A DNA stretch of 64,000 nt, taken from assembly GCA_017445025.1 (NCBI GenBank), contig JAFSVJ010000028.1, positions 95,752 through 159,751 of the forward strand, read 5' to 3'. This stretch comes from Abditibacteriota bacterium. Its GTDB lineage: Bacteria > Armatimonadota > UBA5829. The translations under genes were made by a program, and so were the position numbers. Under the pieces are notes generated by a model. It was not told the origin of the DNA, made no database searches, and saw only the letters and a program-made list of their open reading frames with translations. The number at the start of each line of letters is the position of its first letter. Position 1 is the first letter of the stretch. Shown piece after piece: positions 3,353 through 44,912 of the stretch.

Positions 3353-3476
3353 TTTTATTATCCTTCCCAATTTATTATATAACAAATCAACAAAGAAAGT
3401 CAACTTTAAAAATAATTAGTCTATACAACTTTTTTGTAAAAGATAGATTTTTTAGATTTTTTCTATAAAAATTCTA

Positions 3477-3506
3477 TTGACTTTATTTGTTTGATTATGG
3501 TATAAT
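3477..3506 (+). promoter_or_regulatory. Sigma70-type promoter for pilin-like gene 1: -35 TTGACT at 3477-3482, an 18-nt spacer, and an extended -10 TGGTATAAT at 3498-3506.
   Basis: Consensus hexamers with the TGn extension. The same 'TGGTATAATATAA' occurs upstream of the paralog at 9455. Confidence 0.6.
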
Positions 3507-3529
3507 ATAAATGTAAAAGCATAGTCCGG

Positions 3530-3558
3530 TAAATAATTAGTGTATACTTTTTTATTTA
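3530..3558. promoter_or_regulatory. Candidate operator: palindrome TAAATAA-N15-TTATTTA with a central GTATAC, lying between the -10 and the ribosome-binding site of pilin-like gene 1.
   Basis: Dyad symmetry read directly from the sequence. Analogous dyads occur at the same position in the two paralogous modules. Confidence 0.45.
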
Positions 3559-3596
3559 TCAGTTTATGTAAAAATATATTTAGGAGGAACATAAAA

Positions 3597-4376
3597 ATGT
3601 TCAAAAGAGGATTTACCCTTATAGAATTGTTGGTGGTTATCGCTATAATCGCCATTCTTGCTGCAATTCTATTTCCCGTTTTTGCCCAAGCAAGAGAAAA
3701 AGCCCGAGCCGCCAGTTGTCTGTCCAATGTAAAGCAGTTGGGAACAGCCCTTCAGCTTTATATTGATGACTACGACGAAACCCTTCCAGTTGGTTATGAT
3801 CCGGCCAGACCCACAACTAACTTGAGTGCCGATTATAACAACTATCCGGCTAAGTGTTTCCCATATATGTTCGCACAGGGATTGCAAGCTGAGATACATT
3901 ATTGGACTTGGATGGATTCCATATTCCCTTATGTTAAAAACGTAAAGTTATATACTTGTCCCTCATCCGGTAATATTAAAATCAATAATGTTTATACTTG
4001 CGGCTATGGATTTAACTACAAATTCACCGAATATTTACCAACAGGGGCTCCACAAGTAATTGCCTATGGTTCACTAAACAATCCATCTAAAAAAGTGTTC
4101 CTTGCTGATACTCAAGTTTCAACTGCAGGTTGGACAGACTTTATTATATGTCCTTACACTATGAGAATAAGAAAAAACGAAGGTGCAATAGCTTGGGTTG
4201 TAGGAATTCCTTCTATAAGACATAACGATGGAGCAAATTACACTTTCTGTGATGGTCATGCTAAGTTCTATAAAAGAAATGCTGGACCGACAGAGACAGT
4301 TATTGTTAACGGAACAGAAGCCAATAACTCTAATTACTGGGGTAATGGCGTTGATTGGTGGGATCCGGCTGCATAA
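3597..4376 (+). CDS. Secreted protein with a prepilin-type N-terminal cleavage/methylation domain and a C-terminal H-X9-DG motif (PVC-group pseudopilin-like family); paralog 1.
   Basis: '[32 protein letters not shown]' is a class III signal/prepilin N-terminus. '[17 protein letters not shown]' gives H-X9-DG. Strong ribosome-binding site AGGAGG. Confidence 0.8.
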
Positions 4377-4383
4377 TATCCAT

Positions 4384-4441
4384 CCCCCCGTCATTTGCCT
4401 TTGGCAAATGCCACCCCCCAAAGCTTCGCTTTAGGGGGACA
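4384..4441 (+). repeat. C/G-clamped double-hairpin intergenic element (CCCCCCGTCA-hairpin-CCACCCCCCA-hairpin-AGGGGGACA), copy 1.
   Basis: Five copies in the window (4384, 11759, 19885, 46173, 47782), all in the same orientation, with compensatory base changes in the stems. Confidence 0.7.
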
Positions 4442-4449
4442 GGTTCAGT

Positions 4450-8268: not shown

Positions 8269-9309
8269 TTATTCATTATTCTTATACTCGCTTGGGATTA
8301 GTTTGTGTTTTATTATTTTGTTATACTCTATTAAAGGTTTATTTTGAATTATACCCTCTAATAACTCCATAGTCGCCCTTCCCATTTCATATAAATCAAA
8401 TTCCAGTCTTGTAATATTATACTTACCTGTATAGCTCCAATTTATATTTGAATGAGTTATAATAGGAGTATCTTTAAATATATGAGGATAATCATCAAAA
8501 TATTCTGATGTTATCTTGAACAAATTATCGTCCAAAAACACTACCATATCAGGCTTTTCTTTTATGTTATCCAATATATTTACTATTTCTTCTTCACCAT
8601 TATCTTCACTTTGACCATAACTTATACGATTGTTATTGTAATCACTAAATATAAAATCTTCCAACTGAAAGGGATAACTGCTGTATACATTGCTAACACT
8701 ATCTTTTCTCAAAGCCAAAGAAAATATCAAAACATTAGTGCAACCGTTTCTTTTGATTATTTTTATTATCTCTTCATGAAAATAACTAAAATCAAAGGTG
8801 ACCAAGGGATAAGGGGTTGGCAAGACACCTAAAACATCTACAATGGGTATATTGTTTGACGCAATATAATCTAAATCTTCCACTCTGCCCGCTAATGAAA
8901 TAACTCCTGCAATCTCATATTTATATGTCTCTATTAAAGTTTTAATATCTATCATTTTATTGGAAATAAAATATATAGGTGTATAATTTCTGTCAATAAT
9001 ATACTTATTTAATATTTTAAAGAAGAATCTAAAGATTTTCTTTATATCTCCTTGAGTTGCGTAATCTGTGGAAACTATAAAAATATACTTTTTTTCCTTA
9101 TTCTTCAGTGCCACAAATGTGCCTCTGCCATGCTCTCTATCTATAATCCCTTCTTTTTCAAGATCAGCATAAGCTATTCTAACGGTTCCCCTACTGATTT
9201 TTAATTCTTCCGCAAGGAGAGTTTCACTTATTATTTTATCTCCGTATTTTAAATTATTGTCTTTAATATAATCTTTTATATACTTAATTATTTCTTCTCT
9301 TTTGGTCAT
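8269..9309 (-). CDS. GntR-family transcriptional regulator with a sugar-binding-like C-terminal domain; paralog 2.
   Basis: 'YGDKIISETLLAEELKISRGTVRIAYADLEKEGIIDREHGRGTFVA'. Ribosome-binding site AGAGGTGA. Confidence 0.75.
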   Translation of the reverse strand: MTKREEIIKYIKDYIKDNNLKYGDKIISETLLAEELKISRGTVRIAYADLEKEGIIDREHGRGTFVALKNKEKKYIFIVSTDYATQGDIKKIFRFFFKILNKYIIDRNYTPIYFISNKMIDIKTLIETYKYEIAGVISLAGRVEDLDYIASNNIPIVDVLGVLPTPYPLVTFDFSYFHEEIIKIIKRNGCTNVLIFSLALRKDSVSNVYSSYPFQLEDFIFSDYNNNRISYGQSEDNGEEEIVNILDNIKEKPDMVVFLDDNLFKITSEYFDDYPHIFKDTPIITHSNINWSYTGKYNITRLEFDLYEMGRATMELLEGIIQNKPLIEYNKIIKHKLIPSEYKNNE

Positions 9310-9434
9310 ATTTCACCTCTGTCAATTATATTATAATATAAAAACACATTAAAAAGCAATTTATTAAAAAATAGGTATAAACAAGTTTTTTCAAAAAAAT
9401 GAGTTTCAATAATATTTTATATATAAGATCTCCT

Positions 9435-9463
9435 TGACATTTATAATTTAAATATGGTATAAT
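9435..9463 (+). promoter_or_regulatory. Sigma70-type promoter for pilin-like gene 2: -35 TTGACA at 9435-9440, a 17-nt spacer, and an extended -10 TGGTATAAT at 9455-9463.
   Basis: Consensus hexamers with the TGn extension. Confidence 0.65.
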
Positions 9464-9486
9464 ATAATTGATAAAGAAAAATCCAA

Positions 9487-9518
9487 ACAATTAATAGGTA
9501 TATACAAGTTAATTGTTT
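9487..9518. promoter_or_regulatory. Candidate operator palindrome AACAATTAA-TAGGTATATACAAG-TTAATTGTT between the -10 and the ribosome-binding site of pilin-like gene 2.
   Basis: 9-bp perfect arms; the centre contains the palindrome GTATATAC. Confidence 0.5.
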
Positions 9519-9546
9519 AGATTAAAAATTTAGGAGGAACATTACC

Positions 9547-10242
9547 ATGTTCAAAAAAGGATTTACCCTTATAGAATTGTTGGTTGTAATAGCAATTATA
9601 GCCATTCTTGCTGCAATTCTATTCCCCGTTTTCGCTCAAGCAAGAGAAAAGGCCAGACAAACCAGTTGTTTGTCAAATTGTAAACAAATAGGAACAGCGC
9701 TTCAACTTTATGTTGATGACTATGATGAAACTGTTCCGTTAATGTGGTACAACAGCAACCCATTTCCAACAGATAATTCATATCCTTGCTGTATGTTTAC
9801 CACAATGGATTTTATCTATGGCGGTCCAGCACTATGGACTACTTGGATGGATGCTATATTTCCTTATGTAAAGAATAGAAATATATTTATTTGTCCTTCC
9901 GGAGGAAAAAATCTTGCAGGTTATGGTTATAATGGTAATTTAGTTGGTGGTTATACTGTATGGACACAGGAAAACGCAAAGCCTATCAATCTCGCTCAAA
10001 TCAATAACTCTTCTCAATTAACATTTATTGGGGATACTCTCCAAGGTGGAACTTATAGTGCTATGCCTTTATCTTCTGCTTTAATTTATGCTTATAAGAA
10101 AAATATTAATAGGCATATTAGTGGTATGAATTGGACATTTTGTGATAGTCATGCTAAATACTATAAAGATTCAGCAGGACCGGCCTCTGCACCTAACGAC
10201 TGGATTTGTGCAGGAAATGTTTGGTGGGACCCTGCTGCTTAA
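9547..10242 (+). CDS. Prepilin-type N-terminal cleavage/methylation plus H-X9-D(S/G) protein; paralog 2.
   Basis: '[38 protein letters not shown]'. The C-terminal '[17 protein letters not shown]' gives H-X9-DS. Confidence 0.8.
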
Positions 10243-10352: not shown

Positions 10353-11657
10353 ATGAAAATTTTACTGAACATATTCTTATTAGTTCTACTCACGGGAATG
10401 TTATTGGCTCAAAACAACAGTGCATATATATCAGATGTATATTCAAAACAAGTTCCTCACATAGATAAAAACGGGAATATCCTAACAAAATATGACGAAA
10501 AGAAATCCTTTTTCCCTATTGCAATGTGGGGAGTACCTACATCCGAGGAAGTCTATGGCAAAACCTATAATTGGAACATATTAAAAAAAGCGGGCTACAA
10601 TACAGTTTGGCCCTGGCCCTCAGAAAACAGAGTTGCACAGTTAGACAAAGGAGCTGAATATGGCTTTCAAGTTGTCCTTATGAACCCCATAAGCGACGAA
10701 TCCCTTCCCTTAATTAATAATCATCCTAATCTTTTGGGAAACTGTTGGAGAGACGAACCTATAGGTCAATTAGGCCCTAAAATGCAAAGTATTTTTGATG
10801 ATTTTACTCAATATAAAGATAAAGCCAAGAAATTAGCTCCAAAACTAAAAGTTTTTGTTAACGATGCACCTTGGATAACAGAACCCGCCACAGAATGGTG
10901 GATCAAGTGGAACAAGGCGGGAGACATCTCTTGTCACGATTCCTATCCTGTTTACAACAAAGACGGAGAAGCCGCAAGATCTTTGGGAACAGGCATCAAT
11001 ATGCCGGCATCTATGAACTTGGCTGTATCTTCTACCGATGAAAAAATGCCTGTTTGGCTTATAGTGGGAGCCTTTACCCAACCTAATGAATACGGTAACA
11101 GTTATCCTTTCAGACACCCTACCCCCAACCAACTTCGTTCCTGTGTTTATACAGCTATAGAACATGGTGCTACAGGAATAACCTACTTTATATGGGACAG
11201 CTATATTTCAAGAGAAGGTCAGTGTATAGGTATGTCACCGGATCCTCAAACAGATATGGGAAACGGAGATTCCAAATATGTAATAGCCAAGCCCATTGAT
11301 TTAATAAATGCAAAAGCTAATTGGGAAATGGCTACTCAAATCAACAGAGAACTTAAGGAACTTGCTCCTATCATCTTAACTCCCACTGATACAAAAACTC
11401 AGTTTACAGTTAAAATTACAGGAAAAGGGGTAACGGAGCAACCTATTCACTGTATGCTTAAAAAAGACCCGGAAGGTGGCTGGATACTCTTTACAACCAA
11501 TATAGACGCTTCTTTCTTAAAGGTGGAATATACTTTTATGACATCTATCACAGAAGCAAAGGCTTTGTATGAAAACCAAAAGCCTTTAACAGTTGAAAAC
11601 GATACATTTTCTCTGTCATACGAACCCTTTGAAACACATATAATAAAGATAAAATAA
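10353..11657 (+). CDS. Secreted protein; first of a tandem pair of paralogs. Possible TIM-barrel glycoside hydrolase ('GNCWRDEPIG', 'HGATGITYFIWDS').
   Basis: Signal peptide present. Roughly 45% identical to the product of 11902..13254. Possible NEP-like acid/base motif 'DEP'. Confidence 0.45.
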   Translation: MKILLNIFLLVLLTGMLLAQNNSAYISDVYSKQVPHIDKNGNILTKYDEKKSFFPIAMWGVPTSEEVYGKTYNWNILKKAGYNTVWPWPSENRVAQLDKGAEYGFQVVLMNPISDESLPLINNHPNLLGNCWRDEPIGQLGPKMQSIFDDFTQYKDKAKKLAPKLKVFVNDAPWITEPATEWWIKWNKAGDISCHDSYPVYNKDGEAARSLGTGINMPASMNLAVSSTDEKMPVWLIVGAFTQPNEYGNSYPFRHPTPNQLRSCVYTAIEHGATGITYFIWDSYISREGQCIGMSPDPQTDMGNGDSKYVIAKPIDLINAKANWEMATQINRELKELAPIILTPTDTKTQFTVKITGKGVTEQPIHCMLKKDPEGGWILFTTNIDASFLKVEYTFMTSITEAKALYENQKPLTVENDTFSLSYEPFETHIIKIK

Positions 11658-11758
11658 AAACAAAAAGCAAATCTTAAATATGAAATAAAGAATATAAAAC
11701 AAAAAATAAAAAATATGTCTATCAACTATAAGAAAATCTTAGGTTAAAGGAATTTCCA

Positions 11759-11816
11759 CCCCCCCGTCATTTGCCTTTGGCAAATGACACCCCCCAATCT
11801 TACGATTAGGGGGACA
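11759..11816 (+). repeat. C/G-clamped double-hairpin element, copy 2.
   Basis: CCCCCCGTCATTTGCCTTTGGCAAATGACACCCCCCAATCTTACGATTAGGGGGACAG. Confidence 0.7.
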
Positions 11817-11901
11817 GATTTTACATTTTCTATTTTATATTTTCTATTTAAAAATAATTTTGTGATGACAAAGCATAAACAAAGAAATTCAAGGACAGAT
11901 T

Positions 11902-13254
11902 ATGAAAATACTACTTTATTTATTAATATTTTTAATCTCAGTTTCATCTATTTTAGCTGATGAATTTGAAACTTTGAGAAAAAATCAAAGAAATTTCAAC
12001 AGCATTCAGTTAATATATCAAGACGGTGTCCCTCACACAGACAAAACCGGCAACATTCTAATGGAATATGACAAAGAAAAATCTTTTTTTACCATTGCAG
12101 CTTGGGGTGTTCCTCTGCACGGTGAGCAATTGGGAGAGACTTATGACTGGCAACTCCTAAAAGACGCCGGATTTAACACTGTATGGCCCTATCCTATTTA
12201 CCCTATAGATAAACAGATAGAAGCTTTTGAGAAATTTGATATGCAAGGAATTATTTTACACCCTATAAATGATGAAGATTTGCTCAAAACCATAGGAAAC
12301 AGTCACATACTGGGTAATTGCTTTAAAGACGAGCCAATAGGCCTTGTAGGCTCATATTATGAAGATAATACGCCAAAATCAGATAAAATTTTTAAAGACT
12401 ATTTGGACTACAAAGCTCACGCTCAAGAAATCAATCCCAATCTAAAGATCTTTGTAAATGATTGCACCTGGAACACAGAACCAGCCACAAGTTGGTGGGT
12501 TAAGTGGAACACTGCAGGAGACATTCAATGTCAAGACGCCTATCCCATTACTTTGGATGAAGAAGGAGCTACAAGAACCTTAGCTCACAATAATATAGAC
12601 CTACCTAATTCGGTAGCTTGGGCTACAGCTATAAACAAAGAACAAAAACCTGTATGGCTTATTGTAGGTCCCTTCTCTCAAGTAGATAATTACGGTGGTG
12701 GTTCCTGTTTCAGGTGGCCTACTCCAAACCAACTCCGCTCTTGTGTTTATGCGGGAATTGAACACGGTGCAACAGGAATAATCTATTTTATATGGGACAG
12801 TTTCATATCAAGGGAAGGACGAGTTATAGGTATGAGCCCTAATCCTAAGGTTAAAATGGCTGAAGCAGATAAATATGTGGTAGCTAAGCCTCAAGACCTT
12901 GTAAACTCAAAAGCTATGTGGGAAACCACCAAACAGATAAACAAAGAGCTTAAGGAACTTGCTCCCTACATTCTGTCAAAAACTGTCAAAGAAAAAACTT
13001 ATAGTGTAAAGATAGAAGGCAAATTTATAAGCCCCAACGGTTTAAGATGTCTTCTAAAACAGGACGGAGAAGGTGGATATATTTTGTTTGCCACAAATAT
13101 AGACGCAGCTTGGCTACAAGCAGAATTTACTTTTGAAAAAGAGTTTTTATTAGCGGAAACCATGTTTGAAGACGGAAAGATTTTAGGCAAAGCCGACAAA
13201 GTCTTCAAAGCTGATTTTGACCCCTTTGAAACACATATAATACATATAAGATAA
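11902..13254 (+). CDS. Secreted protein; second of the tandem paralog pair. Possible glycoside hydrolase.
   Basis: 'GNCFKDEPIG', 'NQLRSCVYAGIEHGATGIIYFIWDS'; paralog of 10353..11657. Confidence 0.45.
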   Translation: MKILLYLLIFLISVSSILADEFETLRKNQRNFNSIQLIYQDGVPHTDKTGNILMEYDKEKSFFTIAAWGVPLHGEQLGETYDWQLLKDAGFNTVWPYPIYPIDKQIEAFEKFDMQGIILHPINDEDLLKTIGNSHILGNCFKDEPIGLVGSYYEDNTPKSDKIFKDYLDYKAHAQEINPNLKIFVNDCTWNTEPATSWWVKWNTAGDIQCQDAYPITLDEEGATRTLAHNNIDLPNSVAWATAINKEQKPVWLIVGPFSQVDNYGGGSCFRWPTPNQLRSCVYAGIEHGATGIIYFIWDSFISREGRVIGMSPNPKVKMAEADKYVVAKPQDLVNSKAMWETTKQINKELKELAPYILSKTVKEKTYSVKIEGKFISPNGLRCLLKQDGEGGYILFATNIDAAWLQAEFTFEKEFLLAETMFEDGKILGKADKVFKADFDPFETHIIHIR

Positions 13255-13486: not shown

Positions 13487-14689
13487 ATGAAAATAAAAGT
13501 TGTTGATTTTAACGAATTACCGGTTCACGATACCACTTGGGCTTTATGCGGTGGTATTCACGGAGAAGCCTATGTGGGAGCCTGTTGCGAACACATAGGA
13601 GGTGTCAACGCTGTTGTTGTTCGCTACAATTCCGACGGCACAAGAGAGCCTCTTATGGATATGGGAGATATTGCCGGACAGCCCGCCGACAACGGACGTG
13701 CCACACAGTGCAAAGTCCACGACTCTCTCTTTGTAGATTATGACGGACTTCTCTATGCCGCTACTCACTTAAGCGGTCCTCCCGTCAACCAAATCATTTA
13801 CAACCCTTGGGGTAACTGGATGGACAACCATGTGTCCTTCCCGGGTGCTGTTCTCGCTGTTTATGATACAAACACAGACACTCTCATAAGCAGTGATTAT
13901 ATATACCCCCAAGAAGGTTGCAGAGCCTTAGCCCTTGACCCTATAAGAAAGAAATTATACTCCTGCACCTACCCCTTAAACCATTTCCACGTTTGGGATA
14001 TTGAGAAAAAGCAAGACACAGACTACGGAAGAGTGGGAGCTGTAAACCCTATTTGTATATGGGTTGACAGTAAGGGAAACGGATACCACTGTGACGATTT
14101 CGGCAGAGTTATACGCTTTAATGCAGAAACAGAAAGATTGGAATTCACGGAAGCCTTTACAACTTACCCCAAAAAATCTCAAGGTGGTTGGCACAATGTT
14201 TCTTACGATATAGTAAATACAAAAGAAAAAGATGTGGTTGTCGGTGTCAGCTGGAACTCTTATCCACATCTTTGGAAATATGATATGACCTGTGATAAAA
14301 CAGAAGATTTAGGACCTATCCACCTAAACACAACGGGTAAAGAAGCGCCTCGTATTAACAACTCCCATGTGGCAGGTCTGTGCTTCGGCCCCGACGACAA
14401 ACTATATATGTTTGGAATGACAGAAAACAATGACCTTCCCGGACAGGCCTTAACTCACATTCTTCGCTATACTATGGAAACCGGTGAGTGGGAAGACTTA
14501 GGTCCTCTTGTAGACGACAAGGGAGAAAAGGTTTGGTATATCTCCAGAGCTGTTTGGATAAACAGAAGAGAAATTGTGGGAGCTATAGTGGGCAGAGTGC
14601 CTACAGGAGTGGCTCACATAATTTTTGATGACAATGAAATAGATGACAAAGGGGATAAAAACTTCCCACAACTGAGGATTTGGGGATAA
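13487..14689 (+). CDS. Hypothetical protein, possibly a beta-propeller fold. Local GC content is clearly higher than the surroundings.
   Basis: Long ORF. The compositional shift also produces spurious overlapping ORFs in other frames. Confidence 0.5.
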   Translation: MKIKVVDFNELPVHDTTWALCGGIHGEAYVGACCEHIGGVNAVVVRYNSDGTREPLMDMGDIAGQPADNGRATQCKVHDSLFVDYDGLLYAATHLSGPPVNQIIYNPWGNWMDNHVSFPGAVLAVYDTNTDTLISSDYIYPQEGCRALALDPIRKKLYSCTYPLNHFHVWDIEKKQDTDYGRVGAVNPICIWVDSKGNGYHCDDFGRVIRFNAETERLEFTEAFTTYPKKSQGGWHNVSYDIVNTKEKDVVVGVSWNSYPHLWKYDMTCDKTEDLGPIHLNTTGKEAPRINNSHVAGLCFGPDDKLYMFGMTENNDLPGQALTHILRYTMETGEWEDLGPLVDDKGEKVWYISRAVWINRREIVGAIVGRVPTGVAHIIFDDNEIDDKGDKNFPQLRIWG

Positions 14690-15240
14690 ATAAATGCACA
14701 ATATACCCCCCACGATGAAAAACTTTTTGTTTTTCATCGTTGCCCCCCTCGGGGGGCAAAAGGGTTTTCCCTTTAACTTTGGATATGTTTATAAATTTAC
14801 GCTCTTAATAATAAGAAAATTTCCCTTTACCTCCCTTTTTTCCTATGGCTCTTTTTGAGCAAATCCAAAATCTTGAGACTTATTTATAAACACCTTTTTT
14901 GGTAGTATATTTTATTCTCTGTCTTCGAATGTTCATAAAATACACCACCAAAAAAGATGTTATGTAATAGGCTTATCTAAATTTTAATTTCGTATTTGCT
15001 CAAATTCCAAGGGCTCCCGAAAAGTCGTAGCGTAGCAAGACTTTTTGGGAATGGAAAAATAACCATAACAAAAAAAGGGGCGTTCCTTAATTTAAAGGCT
15101 GGCTTCGGTTAATTGACTCTTTAATCACGGGAAATAAGAGCAAGAAGGGAAACTTGAGCCTCCTTTAAGTAGAATTCACACCTCTTGCAAATTCACATAA
15201 AAATAGAGCAAAACTATTCACAATATATTAGGTTATTATT

Positions 15241-16380
15241 ATGATAGATCTTAGTCAAAAGAAATTTCCCGATAGGGAAAGAGAAATGAACAAGAAAAAA
15301 ATAGGCAGACCTATTCACAATTCCGCCTTTGATACTTTCGTCAAAGAAGGGTCTCTATATGTCCGTTCCATAAACTGCAACAGGCAAATAAAAGATATAG
15401 ATTTTTATTCTTCCAATATTACAACCTTAGCATATAACAATGGATATATTATAGGTGCCACCTCCGGAGAGAAAAGTGTTATTTTCTTACAAGTTCTCCA
15501 CTCAGCCTATGACTGTGCCGCCCCCATATATGAACTAAAGGAAACCAACAATACAGTAGGAATAGCTACCATATCCCTAACTGATATCATAATAGGTTCC
15601 AATAATGATAAAGGTAATATTATCAAAATCACAGGCGTTCACGGCTACGGTGATGTTATTCAGGAGTGGGACTACCCCTACCCTGAAGAAGAAAAATTAT
15701 TAGAAATTCCGGATAAAATCCTCACCTTTAAACAGAGCAAGAAAGATAAAAATATAGTTTACATTATCACAGACACAGGAAAATTTATTATATATAATAT
15801 TGAAGAAAATTCTTTAAATAAAATAGGTATTCTCTCCGAAAACTTCTTCTCAAAAGTAATTTGTGAAGGAGACGATGGTAATGTATATCTGTTTAAGGAA
15901 TTAGGTGGAATCCTTATCTATAAAGATAATAAAATTGAGGAAACAGGTATAAAAATCCCTTGCTTCCCGGGAAAAGGCCCCTATGCCAAAATCTCTGCTG
16001 CTATATGGAAAGATAACACCCTTATTGTGGGAGATACAGAAGGTTTATTGTCAAAGGTTATATTGCCAAACGAAGAGTGTAAAAATGAAATTATACCTCT
16101 CGGAAAGCCCACATCTGTAGGCGGAATTGATTTTCTTGTTGAAATAACAGACGGAAGAATTTACGGAGTTGCGGGAAGTTTTGATGGAATGGCTCATCTA
16201 TTCTTGTATAATCCCAAAAAGCACTCCATAAAAGATTTGGGTGTTTGTTGTGCCACAGTGGAAAAGGGCTGGTATGGTTATGTTATAGGTGATATGGTTG
16301 TCTGCCCCGACGGACACATTGTTTTAGGTGAAAACGATAAACTTGGTTGCCTATTCCACTATTACCCCCCGATTGTGTAA
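15241..16380 (+). CDS. Hypothetical protein, possibly a beta-propeller, distantly similar to the product of 13487..14689.
   Basis: Long ORF with a shared C-terminal pattern (…G..G.AHL..Y…DLG…). Confidence 0.45.
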   Translation: MIDLSQKKFPDREREMNKKKIGRPIHNSAFDTFVKEGSLYVRSINCNRQIKDIDFYSSNITTLAYNNGYIIGATSGEKSVIFLQVLHSAYDCAAPIYELKETNNTVGIATISLTDIIIGSNNDKGNIIKITGVHGYGDVIQEWDYPYPEEEKLLEIPDKILTFKQSKKDKNIVYIITDTGKFIIYNIEENSLNKIGILSENFFSKVICEGDDGNVYLFKELGGILIYKDNKIEETGIKIPCFPGKGPYAKISAAIWKDNTLIVGDTEGLLSKVILPNEECKNEIIPLGKPTSVGGIDFLVEITDGRIYGVAGSFDGMAHLFLYNPKKHSIKDLGVCCATVEKGWYGYVIGDMVVCPDGHIVLGENDKLGCLFHYYPPIV

Positions 16381-16760
16381 AGCAGAAAATTAAAGCAAAA
16401 AGCAAAAAGTTAAATTTGCGATGGCAAATTTAAAAATATTAAAGCATAAAGCATAAAGCATAAAAAAGTGGAGCTAAGGCTCCACTTTGGTTTTGTGGTG
16501 CTTCGCACCACTTTTGTTAAGTGGCCTCTAAATTTTTTAGTGACGACTACAGAACATAGCTAAATAAAAAACTAAAATAAAAGGCTCCCATTTGGGAGCC
16601 ATTTTTATTTAGCGTAAACCAAATTCATATTTAGTCTGACATCCCCAACAATGCCTTTCATAAATAGTTGGTTCATCCCCCGGTCCTCTTTCTATCGGTA
16701 TAACTTTTATAGATTCCTTTGGTTCTTCATAAAGACAACCATCATGTGGACAATCAGAGA

Positions 16761-17015
16761 TTACATAACAATATGTGGAACATATTTTTCTATTTTACAA
16801 TTTACTGTTCTACTGGCTAACCTTTTATACTGTTCGTAAGCAACAGGATCCTTTAAATAATCACAACCTATAACACATCCACCTACTATCCCAGTAAATG
16901 CAAAAATTCCGAAAATTGCTGCTGCCACAATCCAATCTTTATCTATTCCAATACATGTTAAAATAAGAAAAACTATTCCAAAAACAATCATAATAATAAA
17001 ATCTAACATTATCAT
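16761..17015 (-). CDS. Small membrane protein (84 aa, two transmembrane segments).
   Basis: Strong ribosome-binding site AAGGAGG. A Cys-rich (CPHDGC…CWGC) reading frame with no start codon continues downstream at roughly 16640-16800. Confidence 0.5.
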   Translation of the reverse strand: MIMLDFIIMIVFGIVFLILTCIGIDKDWIVAAAIFGIFAFTGIVGGCVIGCDYLKDPVAYEQYKRLASRTVNCKIEKYVPHIVM

Positions 17016-17230
17016 TTTCCTCCTTACAATTTTAATTCATATTTTTTATTTATTTAACTTGCAATTTGAATTCACAGTTAAAATATATTTCATTTTTATT
17101 TATCACTATTATATTTCTTTATAGATATATAATACTCTGTAAAAAAATAATTCACAAAAAATACTAATCGTCATTTGAATAAAACTCACATTCCTTGACA
17201 ACAATAAAATGACGGAAAAATGTTTATTTA

Positions 17231-17440
17231 TTAATGCCAATGAATTATACAGAGATAATGTCTTCCACACCAATTACAAATAATATCTCTTCTTAATTTA
17301 GGATAATCGTCAGGATAAGATATATATTGTGAACGTAGATGTTTTTTGTGACAGTGAGGGCAAAATGTTGCAAAATGACCTGATTTGTATCTGTAATCTA
17401 AAATTTCGCAATTTTCAACTGCATAAGGTTCCTCAAGCAT
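17231..17440 (-). CDS. Small four-cysteine zinc-ribbon protein (69 aa).
   Basis: CxxC…CPHCH…CNWCGRHY. Ribosome-binding site AGGAGA. Paralog of 17711..17926. Confidence 0.55.
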   Translation of the reverse strand: MLEEPYAVENCEILDYRYKSGHFATFCPHCHKKHLRSQYISYPDDYPKLRRDIICNWCGRHYLCIIHWH

Positions 17441-17534
17441 ATTTTTCTCCTATCTTAGTTTGATAAAAATATCAACTGTCAAGATTTTCTTGACAGTTGA
17501 TACACAGTAAAAGTATTCTATGTATGGATATTAA

Positions 17535-17690
17535 TCAATTCTTCTTACATTAGAGATTTGAACTTCTACTGTTGCATATTCCGCAAATAAAAGTCTTCTT
17601 GCATTAGTTTCACTTGAAGCTGTATAAGTTTTAACTTGTATACCCGGAATACCTTTAACTCTATACCTAATCTCATAAGTATGCATAACA
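17535..17690 (-). CDS. Small protein (51 aa), not present in the ORF track.
   Basis: ATG preceded by GGAAGGTGA. Translation: MHTYEIRYRVKGIPGIQVKTYTASSETNARRLLFAEYATVEVQISNVRRID. Confidence 0.35.
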
Positions 17691-17710
17691 TTCACCTTCC
17701 TATAATTTTA

Positions 17711-17926
17711 TTATCGCCATTCGATATAAGCATGTATATGTTCATGACAATGAGAACAATTTACAGTTGGTCCACCATGTCCTAAATAAGTAAAAGGGTG
17801 TTTTGCTGACATTACACGACCGCATTTAGGGCATACTACAACAAGGTATCCATGTCTACCATCAAAGCTTACAATTTCGCAATTAATGCAAACAGGTTCT
17901 TTATCCATTATTTTTCTCCTTCGCAT
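17711..17926 (-). CDS. Small four-cysteine zinc-ribbon protein (71 aa).
   Basis: CINCEI…CPKCG…CSHCHEH. Ribosome-binding site AAGGAG. Confidence 0.55.
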   Translation of the reverse strand: MRRRKIMDKEPVCINCEIVSFDGRHGYLVVVCPKCGRVMSAKHPFTYLGHGGPTVNCSHCHEHIHAYIEWR

Positions 17927-18091
17927 ATTTCTATGCTTTAAAATTAGTTTTTATTGGTTAGAACAAGTAAAATTTCCTTACATAACCATATATATTATAC
18001 TCAAAAAAAAAAAAAACGCAAGTTTTAAGACATAAATGGTGAAAAAAATAAAAAAATTTCATTTCGGGGCAAATAAAAAGCAAAAATAGAT

Positions 18092-18166
18092 AATCAAAAA
18101 TCAAAGTCGTGGTGCTATGCACCACGTATTTCTGCTTTTTACTTTTATTTTTTGATTTGTGATTTA
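18092..18166. repeat. AATCAAAAATCAAAGTC + GTGGTGCTATGCACCAC hairpin + TTTGATTTGTGATTT element.
   Basis: Member of the family listed at 13296. Confidence 0.5.
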
Positions 18167-18244
18167 TGTAAAATTTATGGTATAATAAATATGGATTTGT
18201 AAATATAATATTGGGTGAATGTTACCTTTACTTCCAATAAAGGA

Positions 18245-19845
18245 TTTTTATAAAGAATCACCCCCCTAACGCAGTGCGACAACTGTTTTTTTTCGGACAA
18301 TTACATAAAGATTTGTTTAGTTAGTGGGTAAGACTTTAAATTTCGCGCCATAAGTGCTTTTTAGATTGTAGATTGTTGAACAAAAAAAGCCTTTTGTTTA
18401 CGGAAATCTAAAACCTTACGTAATCACTTTAGACATCAGTCTTTAATACCGAAATCGTTTAGGTTCTTTATCATTATTATGACTAAAACAGAAATTTATC
18501 TCCGGAATTTCCATTTCTGTTCCTTCATAATACTTTGAATACATTTGGAATGTAGTCATATTAGTGTTTGTATATTTTCGTTCATAATTATAATAATGCA
18601 TCCATTCTTCTATTCCTTTATTGAACACTTCAAGTGTTTCAAACTGGCGTTGATTATAAAACTCATCTCTAAGAACGTGATAAAATTGTTCAATAAAGGG
18701 ATTATCTGTGCTTTTATAGGGACGGCTGTGACTTTGCTTTAAACCTAATTTCTCTAAATAATTATGAAAGCCATAAGTGCGATATATTCCCGCTCTATCT
18801 GAATGAAATATACCATCGGTGATCTTAAAAGGTAAAGCTTTTTCTAATAGTTTTAGGGTTTCATTTGCCAGATCGGAATTTTCATGAAATGAAGTGTGAA
18901 AACATATTATCATACGGGAATAATAATCCATAACACAAGATACTTTTATTATGCCAAAGCTATATTCCAACTTAATAACATCGGTGCAAAAGTATCTTAA
19001 AGGTTCATTTGCTCTAAAACCTGTTTTAATTAATCGTTCACATGCCGGCATCCTATCTTTTGTTAAGGATTTATTCTTGCAGCGACTCTCTTTTTTGGTT
19101 AAAAGCAGTCCTTCTTTTTTGGCAATTTTATAGACCTTTTCTTTATAAGTTTTAATACCATAGTCTTCGTAAAGAATAGAAACTAAAGCTTTGCAACCAC
19201 GATATATCTTTCTACGTTCTCGTATATCATGTAAAGCTAAACGAATCTTTTCGTCAATCGGATCTTGTGGCTTTTCCTCTTTAGGCTTATCGTTATCATA
19301 AAAGGTAGAACTTGGTATTTTAGTATGTTTAAACAACATTGTTTTTGTAAAAAATTCTTGATATAAATTGACTATAAAAACCTTAACATCATTTTTTATC
19401 TTTGTCTTTTTTTTTTCAAGAACATTAAATGCTGTGTTAACACAAAGCTCACAATCTAAATCTTTTATGATTTCAATTAATTCTTTTTGGGATTTATTTT
19501 CTAATTGTTTAAGATCAATGGGTTTTCTAAATTCAGCTTCATTTTTCTTTTTTTCTTTGTTAAAAAAGCTCATTGGACCTTTATCCTTATATTGACTAAC
19601 CCAAGAACGAATTGTTTTTCCGCCAGGCTTAGTTTGATTGGGAAGCAATTTTCTTGCAGTTTGCTTAAATGAAAGAAAATGCTCTCTCATATATATTATA
19701 GCATATATTTTGTATTCTGGCGAATAATAAGCCCTCTTTTGTGGCTTTTTTGAGATTTTGCTATCCATTAATTTTCCTCCTATTTGTCCGAAAATTAACA
19801 GATAGCACACGCAGTAGGGGGGGGACTGATTGTCAATCATAGCCA
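18245..19845 (-). mobile_element. Insertion sequence (~1.6 kb) with ~40-bp imperfect terminal inverted repeats (TTGTCCGAAAA..CAG…GC..TAGGGGGG.TGATT) at 18250-18310 and 19780-19840.
   Basis: The inverted repeats were found by comparing the reverse complement of the left end with the right end. A transposase ORF lies between them. Confidence 0.65.
18443..19768 (-). CDS. DDE transposase with an rve/integrase core (IS3/IS481 superfamily), encoded as a single ORF.
   Basis: 'HSDRAGIY' and 'SRPYKSTDNPFIEQFY' match the rve catalytic-core signatures (HSDRG…, SR.G…DNA..E). N-terminal helix-turn-helix. Start placed at the internal 'MDSKISKK' so that the CDS lies inside the right inverted repeat. Confidence 0.75.
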   Translation of the reverse strand: MDSKISKKPQKRAYYSPEYKIYAIIYMREHFLSFKQTARKLLPNQTKPGGKTIRSWVSQYKDKGPMSFFNKEKKKNEAEFRKPIDLKQLENKSQKELIEIIKDLDCELCVNTAFNVLEKKKTKIKNDVKVFIVNLYQEFFTKTMLFKHTKIPSSTFYDNDKPKEEKPQDPIDEKIRLALHDIRERRKIYRGCKALVSILYEDYGIKTYKEKVYKIAKKEGLLLTKKESRCKNKSLTKDRMPACERLIKTGFRANEPLRYFCTDVIKLEYSFGIIKVSCVMDYYSRMIICFHTSFHENSDLANETLKLLEKALPFKITDGIFHSDRAGIYRTYGFHNYLEKLGLKQSHSRPYKSTDNPFIEQFYHVLRDEFYNQRQFETLEVFNKGIEEWMHYYNYERKYTNTNMTTFQMYSKYYEGTEMEIPEINFCFSHNNDKEPKRFRY

Positions 19846-19884
19846 AGTATAAACTTTGGATGCCCGACAAACTTTAAATTCCAT

Positions 19885-19936
19885 CCCCCGTCAGTCCTTA
19901 CGGACTGCCACCCCCCAAGCGACACTTAGAGGGACA
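19885..19936 (+). repeat. C/G-clamped double-hairpin element, copy 3; the second hairpin is degenerate.
   Basis: CCCCCGTCAGTCCTTACGGACTGCCACCCCCCAAGCGACACTTAGAGGGACA. Confidence 0.6.
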
Positions 19937-19974
19937 AATTGTGCATTGTTAATTGTGATTATAGAATTAAAACT

Positions 19975-22900
19975 ATGAACCCTGTGTATTCTCTTGAAAC
20001 AAAAATTAATAATAAATTAAAAGAGCTTAAGGCTCTTATTACTTTAAAAGAAATAAATATGGAGCCTTGGGAAATTCGTCATGCCAAATATATAGACTTT
20101 GGCAATTATGATTATTTAGATGATTGGCAAACTCTCAACATAGGGGATTTTTGGGCCACTTCCGGAGAGACTGCTTTCATAAAAAAAACTGTTAACATTA
20201 ATAACCATAAAGGGGAATATATAGCTCTTTTTTTGGATACAGACGGAGAGGGTTTATTATATCTCAACGGAAAACCTTTCCACGGAGTTGACAATTTTAG
20301 AGGCTATATCTGCCTCACTCCTTCCGCAAAAGAAACAGAAACTTTCAATCTTCTCATAGAGCACAAAGCAGGTGGTTATGAGGACTTTGAAGACAAACCT
20401 ATAAAACATATATTCAAAGAAGCTAAATTACTATCCCTTGACAAAGAACTTGAAAGCATATATTACGACTATCTTGTGCCTTTTGATGTTGCTTGTCACA
20501 CCAAAGATGAAATCACCTCCAAACTTGTCAAGAATTTAGTCTACGACAGCCTTTTATCCGTTAACTTCAATAAAAACAGGGATACAGTCAAAAAAGCTCT
20601 TATAGAGGAAATTCAAAACTTTAAAGACAAACTTTCCACTCTCCCTAAAGCTCCCGGAGCGGTTCATTTTATAGGTAATTCCCATATAGATTTGGTTTTC
20701 ATGTGGCCGGAGCGAGAGACTCACAGAAAGGTGGGCAGAACCTTTAACTCTCTCTGTCGCCTTATGGAAGAATTTCCTCACTATTATTTTATGTGTTCCC
20801 AAGTTCCCATTTATGAATATTTAAAAGAGCTTTACCCTGACACATACTCTCAAATCAAAGAATTAATCAAAGAAGGAAGATTTGAGCCTATCGGTGGCAC
20901 TTATGTCCAACACTCCACCAATCTCCTATCCGGTGAAAGTTTGGTTCGTCAATGCCTATACGGAAAAAGATTTTTCAGAAAAGAATTTAATTATGATGTA
21001 AAAATCGGTTGGCTTCCGGACACCTTCGGTTTTGTTCACTCTCTTCCCCAAATCTACAAGCAAGCGGGAATTGACACACTCATAACTCAAAAGCTACGCT
21101 ACAATGACATAAATTCACATTATGAAGAAAACCTACCCCCTGAGTTGTTATTTAACTGGAAAGGCTGTGACGGTTCCACTCTTTTGGTCTACCACACAGG
21201 GTCCTACAAACATTTAACAACAAATAATATGGAATTTATGCTATATAACATTGGTTATTATTATAATAAAATTAAACATTTGCCAATGCCTGACTATTTG
21301 GCACCATACGGTTTCGGTGACGGTGGAGGTGGTGTTAACAGACGAGAATTGGAATATATAAAAAGGCTTGACACAGCTCCGGGTTTTCCAAAAGTTAAAT
21401 ATGGCACTGTTAAAGATTTCACAGAAAACCTGCCCACAGAGAATTTAAATACAATTGACGATGAACTTTACCTTGAAGCTCACAGAGGCACATACACAAG
21501 TCAAGGTGAAATTAAAAAATTAAACAGACTTTGCGAGATTGGTCTCAGAAACTGTGAAATATTAGGTGTAATAACCCAAAATTATGATAAGACAAAACTT
21601 GCCACGCTTTGGAAAAAAACTCTCTTTAATCATTTTCACGATATTCTTCCCGGATCCTCTATTCACGAAGGAGTAATAGACGCCAAAAAGTCTTACACTG
21701 AAATTCTTTCTGAATCAAACAGAATTATCCACCATAATCTAAAAGTTTTGGCAAAAAGGACAAACACTGAAGGAGATGGTGTTTCTATATTTGTATTTAA
21801 TCCTCTTTCTTATAGGAGAGAAGCTTTAGTTTCTGTTCCTATTACTGAAAATCAAATTATCAAAGATAAAGACGGAAATATTGTCCCAAGTCAAATCTCC
21901 GGGAATAACATCATATTTAACGCCAATATAGACGCCTTTAGTGGAAAAGTATATTTTGCCAACATAGGTATAAATAAAAACACATCACTTATTACATTTA
22001 AAAACAATATTATTGACACTCCTTTGCTTAAAATCACCTTAAAGGATGGTTATATCTCTCAAATCTATGACAAGGATGCAGACAGAGAGCTGTTAGAATG
22101 CGACAGTAATGTTCTGCAAGTTTTTGAAGACAAAGGCGGTTTCTTTGACGCTTGGGATATAGACCCATTATTTGAGAAAAATAAAGAAGAATTTATTCTT
22201 TGTTCAGAGCCAACCCTTATGGAAATTGGTCCTGTCAGATGTGTTATAAGAAGTGAGTATAAATATAACAAATCTTCCATAACTCAAGATATGATAGTCT
22301 ATCCCAATTCAAAGAGAATTGATTTTAAGACACAAGCTAATTGGCACGAAAGCCACACTATGCTAAAAGCATCTTTTAAAGTCAATACAAGATCCACAGA
22401 AGCCACTTATGAAATTCCCTACGGATCTATCAAACGACCCACCACAAGAAATAACAATATAGAAAGAGCAAAGTTTGAAGTATGCGGGCAAAGATGGGCC
22501 GACTTGTCAGAACCTAACTATGGAATATCAATTCTCAACAATTGCAAATACGGTTATGATATAAAAGAAAATGAAATGAGAATTACTCTTCTTCGCAGTC
22601 CCAAGCACCCGGATGCCACCTGCGATATGGGAGACCATGAGTTTACCTATTCCCTATTCCCCCATACAACTTGCTTATTAAAAGAAACAGTTAAAGAAGC
22701 TCATTCTTTAAATAATCCTCTCTTGTCTACAATTACAGACAACCACAAGGGAGAAGAATTAACATCTTTTGTGAATGTTTTAACAGATAATGTTATTATT
22801 GACTGTATCAAATTTGCTGAAGATACTGATGATATTGTCCTTCGCCTTTATGAACCCTACGGTCAAAGGGGAAAAGTGACCTTATCATTTAACAAAAACA

Positions 22901-23054: not shown

Positions 23055-23271
23055 AAACAAAAAAATACAAATCATCCAAAAGCACAATTTTTTATAAGCA
23101 ATTTTGAGTGTAGTCGTCGACTGTAGACTCGCAGAATAAGGTTATTTTTAAAGGCAAAAGCCATTTAAAAATGTCCTTAGGCGAGAATCGTCAAGGAGAC
23201 ACGAAACGAAAAAGTGCGTTAAATAAAAAATTAGGGATTTTGAGAGGAGTTGTGATTTTATGTTTTTAATA
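23055..23271 (+). mobile_element. MITE-like element (~217 bp, degenerate ends) inserted at the mannosidase/SDR gene junction and flanked by ~70-bp direct repeats (22987..23054 and 23272..23343).
   Basis: The direct repeats each contain the 3' end of the mannosidase gene plus the 5' end of the SDR gene. The internal sequence is homologous to 4483..4702 and 44695..44909. Confidence 0.7.
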
Positions 23272-26246: not shown

Positions 26247-26441
26247 ATTCAGCCCCCCCACTATGTAAGGGGTTGAATTGCAGCAATCTCGGGGTCCCCA
26301 AAAAGCCCTGCGAATAGCGAAAACAACCCAAGGGATCCCGAAAAGTCGTAGCATAGCAAGACTTTTTGGGAATGGGTTTTAGGGGTGAGAAATAAGCATC
26401 GCTTTTTTGTAAAAACGCCCAAGGCACCCCGTCATTATTAT

Positions 26442-27685: not shown

Positions 27686-28023
27686 TGGAATGATTATTAT
27701 TTCCTTATAAATCCAAGAGAACTTATTCTAAATCTTGTAAAGCCAACTGTAAACCTTAATTGCTCCTATACTAAGTAGGGCAAAAGTTAGTAGACTTTTT
27801 GGGATTTACAAAACTGCTTCACCCTCTTTGAACTGAATTTGCTTTCGCAAATTCATTTCAAGGAGGGGGACCACAAGGCGTAAGCCATTGTGGTGGGTGG
27901 TCAGGAATAAATTTGCATAGAATTGCAAATTTATGATAGAAGCATAATAATATAACAGAGCAACCACATTTGAAGACGGTGGGTGGTCAGGAGTAAAAAT
28001 AGCTAAACTGCAAATTTTACGAT

Positions 28024-44909: not shown

Positions 44910-44912
44910 TTA

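What the first reader, a model, noticed from the sequence alone, without database searches (positions are those of the whole stretch)
16640..17930. Cluster of four tiny genes (two paralogous four-Cys zinc ribbons, a 51-aa protein, a small membrane protein) next to an IS element
On the minus strand, each with a strong Shine-Dalgarno sequence and separated by ~250-bp AT-rich spacers, lie the following. A 71-aa CxxC…CPxCG…CSHCHEH protein. An unannotated 51-aa protein (17535-17690). A 69-aa paralog of the first (CENCEI…CPHCH…CNWCGRHY). An 84-aa two-transmembrane protein, whose downstream reading frame continues into another Cys-rich segment (CPHDGC…CWGC) that lacks a start codon. The spacing suggests individually promoted small proteins rather than an operon. 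Paralogous mini zinc-ribbons beside a transposase could be regulatory or anti-sigma-like factors, toxin/antitoxin-like modules, or cargo brought in by the IS.
Basis: seen in the sequence. Interest (0 to 1): 0.55.

Follow-up and report, generated by a model that had tools for sequence, protein, structure and literature searches.

The report
Lineage-restricted mini zinc-ribbon gene cassette
The tiny genes are real: two of them (plus a third copy elsewhere) form a small cysteine-rich, probably zinc-binding protein family known only from rumen-type Abditibacteriota, the neighbouring transposon is a bystander, and their function is unknown.

Summary
The ORFs exist on the minus strand, with corrections. 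ZR1 is 65 aa rather than 71 (17711-17908). The 51-aa gene lies at 17531-17686 and is already annotated in GenBank. Only one spacer exceeds 200 bp. The window comes from an Abditibacteriota MAG.

ZR1 and ZR2 are true paralogs. In related metagenome contigs they sit 18 nt apart as a promoter-UTR-ZR1-ZR2 cassette in an unrelated context with no IS. ZR1 is under strong purifying selection (dN/dS 0.03; ZR2 0.36). A full HMMER profile search of 1.84 billion proteins found one further member, ZR3. Nothing matched in Pfam, NCBIfam, PHROGs, PADLOC or PDB. AlphaFold gives a confident all-beta model with no fold match.

The 51-aa gene and its terminator lie in a 252-bp indel that splits the pair. It is a confidently folded beta-beta-alpha-beta orphan.

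The 84-aa membrane ORF and the start-less Cys-rich tail look like one gene split by a 1-nt frameshift at an A-run. I could not show the tail to be a ZR paralog.

The IS3 element lies outside the cluster. TA, anti-sigma and IS-cargo readings are unsupported. Function is unknown. My best guess is a paired zinc-ribbon micro-protein binding a macromolecular partner, with a conserved hairpin beside the ribosome-binding site hinting at translational control.

The parts
17711..17908 (-). ZR1: 65-aa Cys/His-rich zinc-ribbon-like protein (MDKEPVCINCEI...CPKCG...CSHCHEH...IEWR). The mechanical ORF extends to 17926 (71 aa).
   Evidence: ORF. The start at Met7 follows from the conserved AAGGAG ribosome-binding site and from the upstream ATG being out of frame in L004. 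The ortholog in L004/L005/L006 differs by 1 aa but by 8-9 synonymous sites, dN/dS 0.03. AlphaFold pLDDT is 85.3 with seven beta strands.
17231..17440 (-). ZR2: 69-aa paralog of ZR1 (core NCEI...G...CPHC...CNWC...I.W).
   Evidence: The ortholog is P0009 (68 aa), lying 18 nt downstream of ZR1 in L004-L006. dN/dS is 0.36 and the Cys core is kept.
17531..17686 (-). 51-aa orphan gene (MHTYEIRYRVKG...), with a predicted beta-beta-alpha-beta fold.
17452..17704 (-). 252-253-bp indel relative to the ZR1-ZR2 cassette of L004/L006. It carries the ribosome-binding site, the 51-aa gene and a terminator hairpin, and is bounded by a 6-nt repeat ATAGGA.
   Evidence: Three-way DNA alignment. BLAST breakpoints lie at 17705 and 17451.
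17469..17503 (-). Intrinsic-terminator-like hairpin (16 pairs followed by a T-run) after the 51-aa gene, immediately upstream of the ZR2 ribosome-binding site.
17994..18021 (-). Putative ZR1 promoter: TTGCGT (18021-18016), a 16-nt T-rich spacer, then TATAAT (17999-17994).
   Evidence: Read from the sequence. The -10 block GAGTATAATATATATGGTTATG is identical in L004/L006 and nearly identical upstream of an unrelated gene in L019. My own consensus scan did not flag it, because the -35 matches only 3 of 6.
17952..18125 (-). Repeated intergenic module (hairpin GTGGTGC-N3-GCACCAC, T-rich tract and promoter) upstream of ZR1.
   Evidence: 82.6% identical over 178 nt to L019 6482-6659, which lies upstream of an unrelated 326-aa gene. 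The hairpin motif occurs 5 times in the window against 0 expected.
17923..17936 (-). Conserved 5'-UTR hairpin GCAUA-N4-UAUGC, 1-4 nt upstream of the ribosome-binding site of ZR1.
   Evidence: The same stem, with different loops, is present upstream of ZR1 in L004 and L006 and upstream of ZR3 in L019. The stem never varies, so there is no covariation.
16761..17015 (-). 84-aa (or 82-aa) ORF with two hydrophobic, likely transmembrane, segments. It is probably the N-terminal part of a frameshift-split gene.
   Evidence: MBQ7256653.1. It is 100% identical on 7 contigs from 7 samples. No family hit.
16609..16794 (-). Start-less Cys-rich open frame (-1 relative to the 84-aa ORF): CSTYC...CPHDGC...CWGC. 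Restoring one A in the run GAAAAAT at about 16785-16791 fuses it to the membrane ORF, giving about 135 aa.
   Evidence: Translation. The frame analysis is from the sequence. P(open) is about 0.004 in shuffles. The only terminator hairpin is downstream, at 16583-16600. Homology to the ZR family is not supported.
17129..17157 (-). Promoter-like site for the membrane gene (TTGTGA-17-TATTAT), with the same GAGTAT(A/T)ATATA context as the ZR1 promoter.
   Evidence: The homology of contig L017 to the window begins at 17161.
16583..16600 (.). Bidirectional terminator-like hairpin closing the cluster.
18261..19823 (-). IS3-family insertion sequence (43-nt imperfect inverted repeats; transposase ORF 18443-19840/19870). 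It is a neighbour and not part of the cluster.

Best explanation
The region is a small chromosomal islet of autonomous mini-genes in a rumen/gut Abditibacteriota genome.

The core is a lineage-restricted family of 65-69-aa Cys-rich proteins: ZR1 and ZR2 here, and ZR3 at another locus. Shown: ZR1 and ZR2 are conserved, selected coding genes, and in relatives they form a bicistronic promoter-5'UTR-ZR1-ZR2 cassette.

Inferred: each protein binds one zinc through the four invariant Cys of the CPxC and CxxC knuckles (C26/C29/C51/C54 in ZR1 numbering) and folds into a compact all-beta zinc-ribbon-like domain. The tightly coupled pair acts together in the cytoplasm as a small adaptor or regulator that binds a macromolecular partner. 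A conserved hairpin abutting the ribosome-binding site of ZR1 and ZR3 is a candidate site for translational (auto)control.

In this genome the pair has been split by a 252-bp segment. That segment carries an unrelated, well-folded 51-aa gene and a terminator, so ZR2 now depends on read-through.

The fourth 'gene' and the start-less Cys-rich tail are most simply one former membrane-anchored Cys-rich protein of about 135 aa, split by loss of one A in an A-run.

The IS3 element inserted into the intergenic DNA next to the islet and has no functional link to it.
For: Organism and annotation.

Conservation of the cassette in a different context without an IS.

Purifying selection: ZR1 has 8-9 synonymous changes against 1 non-synonymous (dN/dS 0.03). 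ZR2 has dN/dS 0.36 with the Cys core kept.

Third member: ZR3 was found by an exhaustive profile search (E=3.2e-6, full length). It shares the ribosome-binding region and the UTR hairpin.

Invariant residues: C10, C26, P27, C29, C51, C54.

Structure: confident all-beta AlphaFold model.

Indel: precisely delimited, with a terminator inside it.

Frameshift geometry. All eight overlapping contigs, from about seven samples, are identical, so this is not an assembly error.

IS boundaries exclude the cluster.
Against: There is no experimental or homology-based evidence for any function. Zinc binding is inferred from motifs only, and some archaeal C(P)XCG micro-proteins do not bind zinc (title of PMC11241148).

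The UTR hairpin stem is invariant in only four sequences, so there is no covariation. It could simply be a stabilising element.

The proteins are roughly neutral in charge (ZR1, ZR2), which does not favour nucleic-acid binding.

The 51-aa and membrane ORFs have no diverged homologs, so their coding status rests on ribosome-binding sites, the AlphaFold model and open-frame statistics.

The direction of the 252-bp indel (insertion here or deletion in relatives) is unresolved.

A link between the tail and the ZR family was not supported.
Confidence: 0.6

Rival explanations
1. Toxin-antitoxin or other defence/addiction module. One small protein (the membrane protein, or ZR1) would be toxic and a neighbour would neutralise it, with the module carried on mobile DNA.
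Against: None of the seven proteins hits PADLOC, Pfam, NCBIfam or PHROGs. The conserved pair consists of two paralogs of the same fold, which is unlike known TA pairs. The 51-aa gene is absent from the homologous cassette. ZR3 occurs alone. The membrane gene appears frameshifted. No phage or plasmid relatives were found.
Confidence: 0.08
2. Zinc-dependent anti-sigma-like or transcription-factor-like regulators, that is, small zinc fingers that bind a sigma factor, RNA polymerase or DNA.
Against: No H-x3-C-x2-C ZAS motif is conserved across the family (alignments). No sigma-factor Pfam domain was found in the 18 Pfam-scanned ORFs between 4.7 and 27.7 kb. The putative anchor is N-terminal, the opposite of ZAS anti-sigmas. 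ZR1 and ZR2 are not basic. The fold similarity of the 51-aa protein is generic: the same fold occurs in ribosomal eL20, PurS and PaaB.
Confidence: 0.12
3. Metal-handling proteins: small His/Cys-rich zinc or nickel buffers or chaperones, with zinc as cargo rather than a structural cofactor.
For: ZR1 has 6 Cys and 9 His in 65 aa, including the stretch CSHCHEHIH. It has a strong-looking promoter and ribosome-binding site.
Against: Most His residues are not conserved in ZR2 or ZR3 (alignment). Only the ribbon Cys are invariant, which is typical of a structural site. No metal transporter or Zur-like gene lies nearby.
Confidence: 0.08
4. The 84-aa ORF and the tail are expressed as one protein by programmed -1 ribosomal frameshifting at the A-run. 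The split would then be functional rather than a pseudogene.
For: The -1 frame is open for 61 codons with a zinc-ribbon-like Cys pattern. tRNA-Lys can re-pair at A-AAA. The frameshifted state is identical in every sampled contig. The only terminator follows the tail.
Against: There is no canonical X-XXY-YYZ heptamer, only five A's, and no convincing downstream stimulatory structure seen by eye. All contigs are identical, so persistence says nothing about selection. A 1-nt loss from an A6 run is the commonest kind of inactivating mutation.
Confidence: 0.07

Closest known systems
One-domain C(P)XCG zinc-finger micro-proteins of Haloferax volcanii (e.g. HVO_2753, HVO_0758; PMC11241148, PMC10716476, PMC6562870)
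   Same: They are stand-alone proteins of under 70 aa built around paired CxxC knuckles, and ZR1 carries a literal CPKCG. They consist of a single compact domain with nothing else attached. They belong to many lineage-specific families whose functions are mostly regulatory or unknown.
   Different: This family is bacterial (Abditibacteriota) and has no detectable sequence homology to them: Pfam HVO_2753_ZBP scored E=0.036, 14 bits against a cut-off of 33. The second knuckle is CxxC(H/G), not CxxCG. The predicted fold is a larger seven-strand beta domain. The genes occur as a tandem paralog pair.
Classical zinc ribbons of ribosomal and RNA-associated proteins (archaeal eS31/S27ae, Nop10, NrdR N-terminus, L33)
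Phage Mu Com (zinc-ribbon translational activator that binds an mRNA hairpin next to the mom ribosome-binding site; my own knowledge of the literature)
   Same: It is a small C4 zinc protein, and here a conserved hairpin lies directly 5' of a ribosome-binding site. PHROG 6417 'translational regulator' gave a weak hit, E=0.036.
   Different: There is no significant homology. The hairpin here lies in the proteins' own mRNAs, so the model would be autoregulation. No binding has been tested, and the genes are not in a phage.
ZAS-type anti-sigma factors (zf-HC2, H-x3-C-x2-C)
   Same: Cys/His-rich, and one relative is possibly membrane-tethered.
   Different: The motif is absent, no partner sigma gene is present, and the domain order is the opposite.

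Membership tests
Zinc-ribbon fold (generic, C4 with two knuckles) | Two CxxC/CPxC knuckles 15-30 residues apart, invariant across homologs | tested here: met
   C26-P-x-C29 and C51-x-x-C54 are invariant in ZR1, ZR1', ZR2, ZR2' and ZR3.
Zinc-ribbon fold (generic, C4 with two knuckles) | Three-dimensional similarity to solved zinc ribbons | tested here: inconclusive
Zinc-ribbon fold (generic, C4 with two knuckles) | Actual zinc binding | not testable with these tools
   This needs metal analysis of purified protein.
Any curated protein family (Pfam, NCBIfam, PHROGs, PADLOC) | Score above the family threshold | tested here: not met
   The best Pfam hits score 17-18 bits against cut-offs of 25-29. 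NCBIfam, PHROGs and PADLOC gave nothing significant.
ZAS anti-sigma factor (zf-HC2) | A conserved H-x3-C-x2-C motif and an adjacent ECF sigma gene | tested here: not met
   The motif is absent from the alignments. I found no sigma-factor Pfam domain in the 18 Pfam-scanned ORFs between 4.7 and 27.7 kb.
Toxin-antitoxin / defence system | Homology of at least one component to a known toxin, antitoxin or defence protein, and a conserved two-gene partnership of unlike proteins | tested here: not met
   PADLOC gave 0 hits for all seven proteins. The conserved pair consists of two paralogs. The 51-aa gene is dispensable in the relatives' cassette.
IS/transposon passenger (cargo) genes | Location between the terminal inverted repeats of the element, and co-occurrence with the element elsewhere | tested here: not met
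   The inverted repeats are at 18261-18303 and 19781-19823, so the cluster at 16609-17908 lies outside them. The ZR1-ZR2 cassette in L004-L006 and ZR3 in L019 have no transposase nearby.
ZR family (defined here) | Membership of the Cys-rich tail, or of the reconstructed membrane-protein fusion | tested here: not met
   An HMM built from five ZR sequences does not report the fusion or the tail among 1309 six-frame segments. hhalign gave E=0.023 with probability 2%. Only the NC(K/E)I-16-CP spacing is suggestive.

The most novel reading that the evidence does not exclude
ZR1/ZR2/ZR3 would be a previously unrecognised class of bacterial zinc-ribbon micro-proteins that bind the conserved GCAUA-N4-UAUGC hairpin beside their own ribosome-binding sites to control translation. 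They would travel through Abditibacteriota genomes as self-contained promoter-to-terminator mini-cassettes. The 51-aa gene cassette and the membrane-gene cassette would be further examples, and this would amount to an unrecognised mode of small-gene shuffling.
Probability: 0.1. Interest if true: 0.6.

Novelty: new member of a known kind. Interest (0 to 1): 0.3.

Why it matters
Small proteins are systematically under-studied, and Abditibacteriota is a barely characterised phylum. This is a clean, selection-supported example of a phylum-restricted micro-protein family with no match in 1.84 billion representative proteins, a confident predicted structure and no matching known fold. It would be a useful target for small-proteome work.

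It also illustrates how mini-genes are inserted, split and frameshifted in a variable intergenic islet. It does not open or settle a major question, and no mechanism can yet be tied to it.

Tried and rejected
- Word-indexed search of 5.8 billion protein clusters with ZR1 found only itself.
- A concatenated query (ZR2 + 51-aa + membrane ORF + tail) returned nothing, not even self-hits, so that search was wasted and is uninformative. As a result, the 51-aa and membrane proteins were never properly searched in the large protein databases.
- A profile search of the same database found only ZR1, ZR2 and P0009.
- Scans of GTDB genomes, IMG/VR and JGI metagenomes with the family alignment gave only L009 (identical to L005) and generic zinc-knuckle matches. 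These were an archaeal eS31-like ORF, a 61%-GC viral contig and two 53-55%-GC contigs. I rejected them as homologs.
- tblastn against phage and plasmid collections gave only E >= 0.9 CxxC matches to haloviruses for ZR1. For the 51-aa protein there was nothing.
- Rfam on 16000-20000 gave only sub-threshold terminator-like matches.
- The hypothesis that the Cys-rich tail is a third ZR paralog fused to a membrane anchor was not supported by HMMER or hhalign.
- Flanking proteins of L004, L006 and L019 have no homologs in the window, so synteny could not be used.
- The afdb50 Foldseek library was unavailable.
Full report
**Source and setting**

The window comes from a metagenome-assembled Abditibacteriota genome. 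The four small ORFs are GenBank proteins MBQ7256653-56, locus tags IJS60_03050-03065. Identical DNA (99.98-100%) recurs in ruminant-gut-type metagenome contigs L001-L003 and L012-L017.

The neighbourhood is ordinary chromosome:
- two unannotatable proteins of 379 and 400 aa, of which only the 400-aa one gives weak, sub-threshold Kelch-repeat hits
- a GH38 alpha-mannosidase
- a GntR regulator
- DUF1559 pseudopilin-like proteins
- shikimate-pathway genes

There are no phage genes. I found no sigma-factor domain in the 18 Pfam-scanned ORFs between 4.7 and 27.7 kb.

**Checking the observation**

All four ORFs and the start-less Cys-rich frame are present on the minus strand. Several details need correcting.

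- The '71-aa' ORF should be read as 65 aa (17711-17908). The ribosome-binding site AAGGAG sits 8 nt before Met7 in every homolog. In L004 a 1-nt difference puts the upstream ATG out of frame.
- The 51-aa gene is at 17531-17686. It is annotated in GenBank.
- The spacers are 24, 90 and 215 nt, not about 250 bp each.
- Terminator-like hairpins are enriched in 16300-18500 (9 found against 0.8 expected). They lie after the 51-aa gene (17469-17503), after the Cys-rich tail (16583-16600) and between the IS and ZR1 (18108-18126).

**The zinc-ribbon pair is a conserved cassette**

A near-identical ZR1 (65 aa, one substitution) is encoded on contigs L004, L005 and L006 in a completely different context. 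There it lies between a 1535-aa secreted-looking protein and an AAA_14/DUF4143 ATPase, with no IS.

On those contigs ZR1 is followed after 18 nt by a 68-aa ortholog of ZR2. DNA homology to the window starts just upstream of a TATAAT box (window 18002) and ends about 15 nt after the ZR2 stop (window 17216). Identity is 89.6% across ZR1 and 80% across ZR2.

ZR1 shows 8-9 synonymous changes and 1 non-synonymous change (dN/dS 0.03). ZR2 shows 12.5 synonymous and 25.5 non-synonymous changes (dN/dS 0.36), with the Cys core intact. Both are therefore real coding genes, and the ancestral or alternative unit is a bicistronic promoter-UTR-ZR1-ZR2 cassette.

**Family size**

- The word-indexed search of 5.8 billion clusters found only ZR1, ZR2 and the L004-type ZR2.
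- An exhaustive HMMER profile search of 1.84 billion representatives added one full-length member, P0011/ZR3 (69 aa, E=3.2e-6).
- ZR3 is encoded alone next to an LRR_5 protein on L019/L020, in the same samples as the window's organism.
- The other hits in that search were repeats or low-complexity proteins.
- Scans of GTDB genomes, IMG/VR and JGI metagenomes gave nothing beyond generic knuckle matches.
- No member reaches any Pfam, NCBIfam, PHROG or PADLOC threshold or any PDB sequence.

Invariant positions across the five sequences are N9, C10, I12, G20, C26, C29, C51, C54, I62 and W64. P27, invariant in the four-sequence alignment, is not aligned in ZR3. The first CxxC of ZR1 and most His residues are not conserved.

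**Regulatory anatomy**

Upstream of ZR1 lies TTGCGT, a 16-nt T-rich spacer, then TATAAT. The -10 block is identical in L004/L006.

The whole 174-nt stretch 17952-18125 (hairpin GTGGTGC-N3-GCACCAC, T-tract and promoter) is 82.6% identical to the DNA upstream of an unrelated 326-aa gene in L019. It is therefore a dispersed intergenic promoter/terminator module of this lineage. The hairpin motif occurs five times in the window against none expected.

The membrane gene has a similar GAGTATTATATA -10 context.

A 5-bp hairpin GCAUA-N4-UAUGC lies 1-4 nt 5' of the ribosome-binding site. It is kept, with different loops, in ZR1 of the window, L004 and L006, and in ZR3 of L019, although the rest of the ZR3 leader is unrelated. 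This is the only hint of mechanism: a cis element where translation could be controlled. With an invariant stem in four sequences it remains an inference.

**The 51-aa gene**

It lies entirely within a 252-253-bp segment (17452-17704) that is missing from the L004/L006 cassette. The segment is bounded by a 6-nt repeat ATAGGA and comprises its own ribosome-binding site, the ORF and a 16-bp terminator hairpin. In this genome the segment separates ZR2 from the ZR1 promoter.

The protein has no sequence relatives in the resources I could use. The one big-database attempt failed technically.

**The membrane ORF and the tail**

The 84-aa ORF has two hydrophobic segments followed by a positively charged stretch. 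The Cys-rich frame (CSTYC...CPHDGC...CWGC) is open for 61 codons in the -1 frame, overlaps the last 11 codons of the 84-aa ORF, and has no start codon or ribosome-binding site.

P(open) is about 0.004 in composition-matched shuffles. The only terminator follows the tail.

Adding one A to the run GAAAAAT joins the two frames into a protein of about 135 aa. The simplest reading is a gene split by a homopolymer deletion. All contigs covering it are identical, so it is not an assembly artefact, but selection cannot be assessed.

Programmed -1 frameshifting is possible but lacks a canonical heptamer.

I suspected the fusion was a third ZR paralog, because the NC(K)I-16-CP spacing equals that of ZR1. 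hhalign gave only E=0.023 with probability 2%, and the ZR HMM does not detect it. I do not claim this relationship.

**The IS**

The transposase is IS3 family. Imperfect 43-nt inverted repeats at 18261-18303 and 19781-19823 delimit an element of about 1.56 kb. It lies between the ZR1 promoter module and the GH38 gene.

The small genes are outside it, and their homologs elsewhere have no IS. The region (cluster and IS) is lower in GC than the flanking genes (24-31% against about 35-43%).

Short contigs L013 and L017 diverge from the window upstream of 17229 and 17161. This is compatible with a variable islet in which promoter-to-terminator mini-cassettes are shuffled, but chimeric assembly cannot be excluded.

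**Interpretation**

Shown:
- real, selected paralogous mini-genes
- a conserved bicistronic cassette
- extreme taxonomic restriction
- an indel carrying a folded orphan gene
- a frameshift-split membrane/Cys-rich gene
- an incidental IS

Inferred:
- structural zinc binding by the four invariant Cys
- joint action of ZR1 and ZR2
- possible translational control at the UTR hairpin

Unsupported: TA, anti-sigma and IS-cargo readings.

The closest known kind is the class of one-domain C(P)XCG zinc-finger micro-proteins studied in Haloferax (PMC11241148, PMC10716476, PMC6562870). The resemblance is in kind, not in family.

**Verdict**

This is a new small family of a known general kind, with unknown function and moderate-to-low interest.

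Noticed in passing
window 13318, 16495, 18109, 26612, 39016 (17-nt sites): The hairpin GTGGTGC-N3-GCACCAC occurs five times in intergenic DNA against none expected in shuffles. It looks like a REP-like or terminator-like dispersed element of this genome.
   Followed up: partly
window 23062-23260 ~ 44698-44898; 44611-44693 ~ 44910-44992; 1123-1197 ~ 2052-1978; 15007-15054 ~ 26328-26375; 27818-27935 ~ 59078-59188; 4375-4445 ~ 11751-11820: There are many short (50-200 nt) dispersed intergenic repeats at 76-96% identity. Several also match intergenic DNA of contigs L019 and L004. They look like shared promoter/terminator modules reused upstream of unrelated genes.
   Followed up: partly
window 2322-3787 ~ 8279-9737 and 10812-11368 ~ 12409-12965: These are duplicated gene blocks. 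One is a GntR-family regulator plus a DUF1559/N-methyl pseudopilin-like gene (70.6% over about 1.5 kb). The other is two adjacent 434- and 450-aa paralogs with no Pfam domain (68%).
   Followed up: no
L013 nt 1-111 and L017 nt 1-223 (junctions at window 17229 and 17161): Two short metagenome contigs carry the membrane-gene promoter and gene identically but have unrelated sequence upstream, one of them 55% GC. These are either strain variants lacking the ZR genes or chimeric assemblies. The L017 junction coincides with the -35 of the predicted membrane-gene promoter.
   Followed up: partly
window 17923-17936 (minus strand); L004 about 5176-5189; L006 about 838-851; L019 about 8940-8953: A 5-bp hairpin GCAUA-N4-UAUGC lies directly 5' of the ribosome-binding site. 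It is conserved between ZR1 orthologs and the distant paralog ZR3, with variable loops.
   Followed up: partly
L007 1666-1836: The only 'relative' found in GTDB genomes is an archaeal (Culexarchaeum) small ORF that looks like ribosomal protein eS31/S27ae (CPKCGKVMATHHDRFNCGYCGYT). It is 40% identical to ZR1 over 39 aa around the first knuckle, which is probably generic zinc-ribbon similarity.
   Followed up: partly
window 13487-14689 and 15241-16380: Two proteins of 400 and 379 aa upstream of the cluster have no significant family assignment. The 400-aa one shows only weak Kelch-repeat hits (E about 0.007).
   Followed up: no
L018 (GCA_018396375.1, 263-nt contig VKOM0108067071.1): The 51-aa gene also appears, identical, on a 263-nt contig of an NCBI assembly with a very large number of contigs. 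This is presumably a metagenome or contaminant read-through.
   Followed up: no
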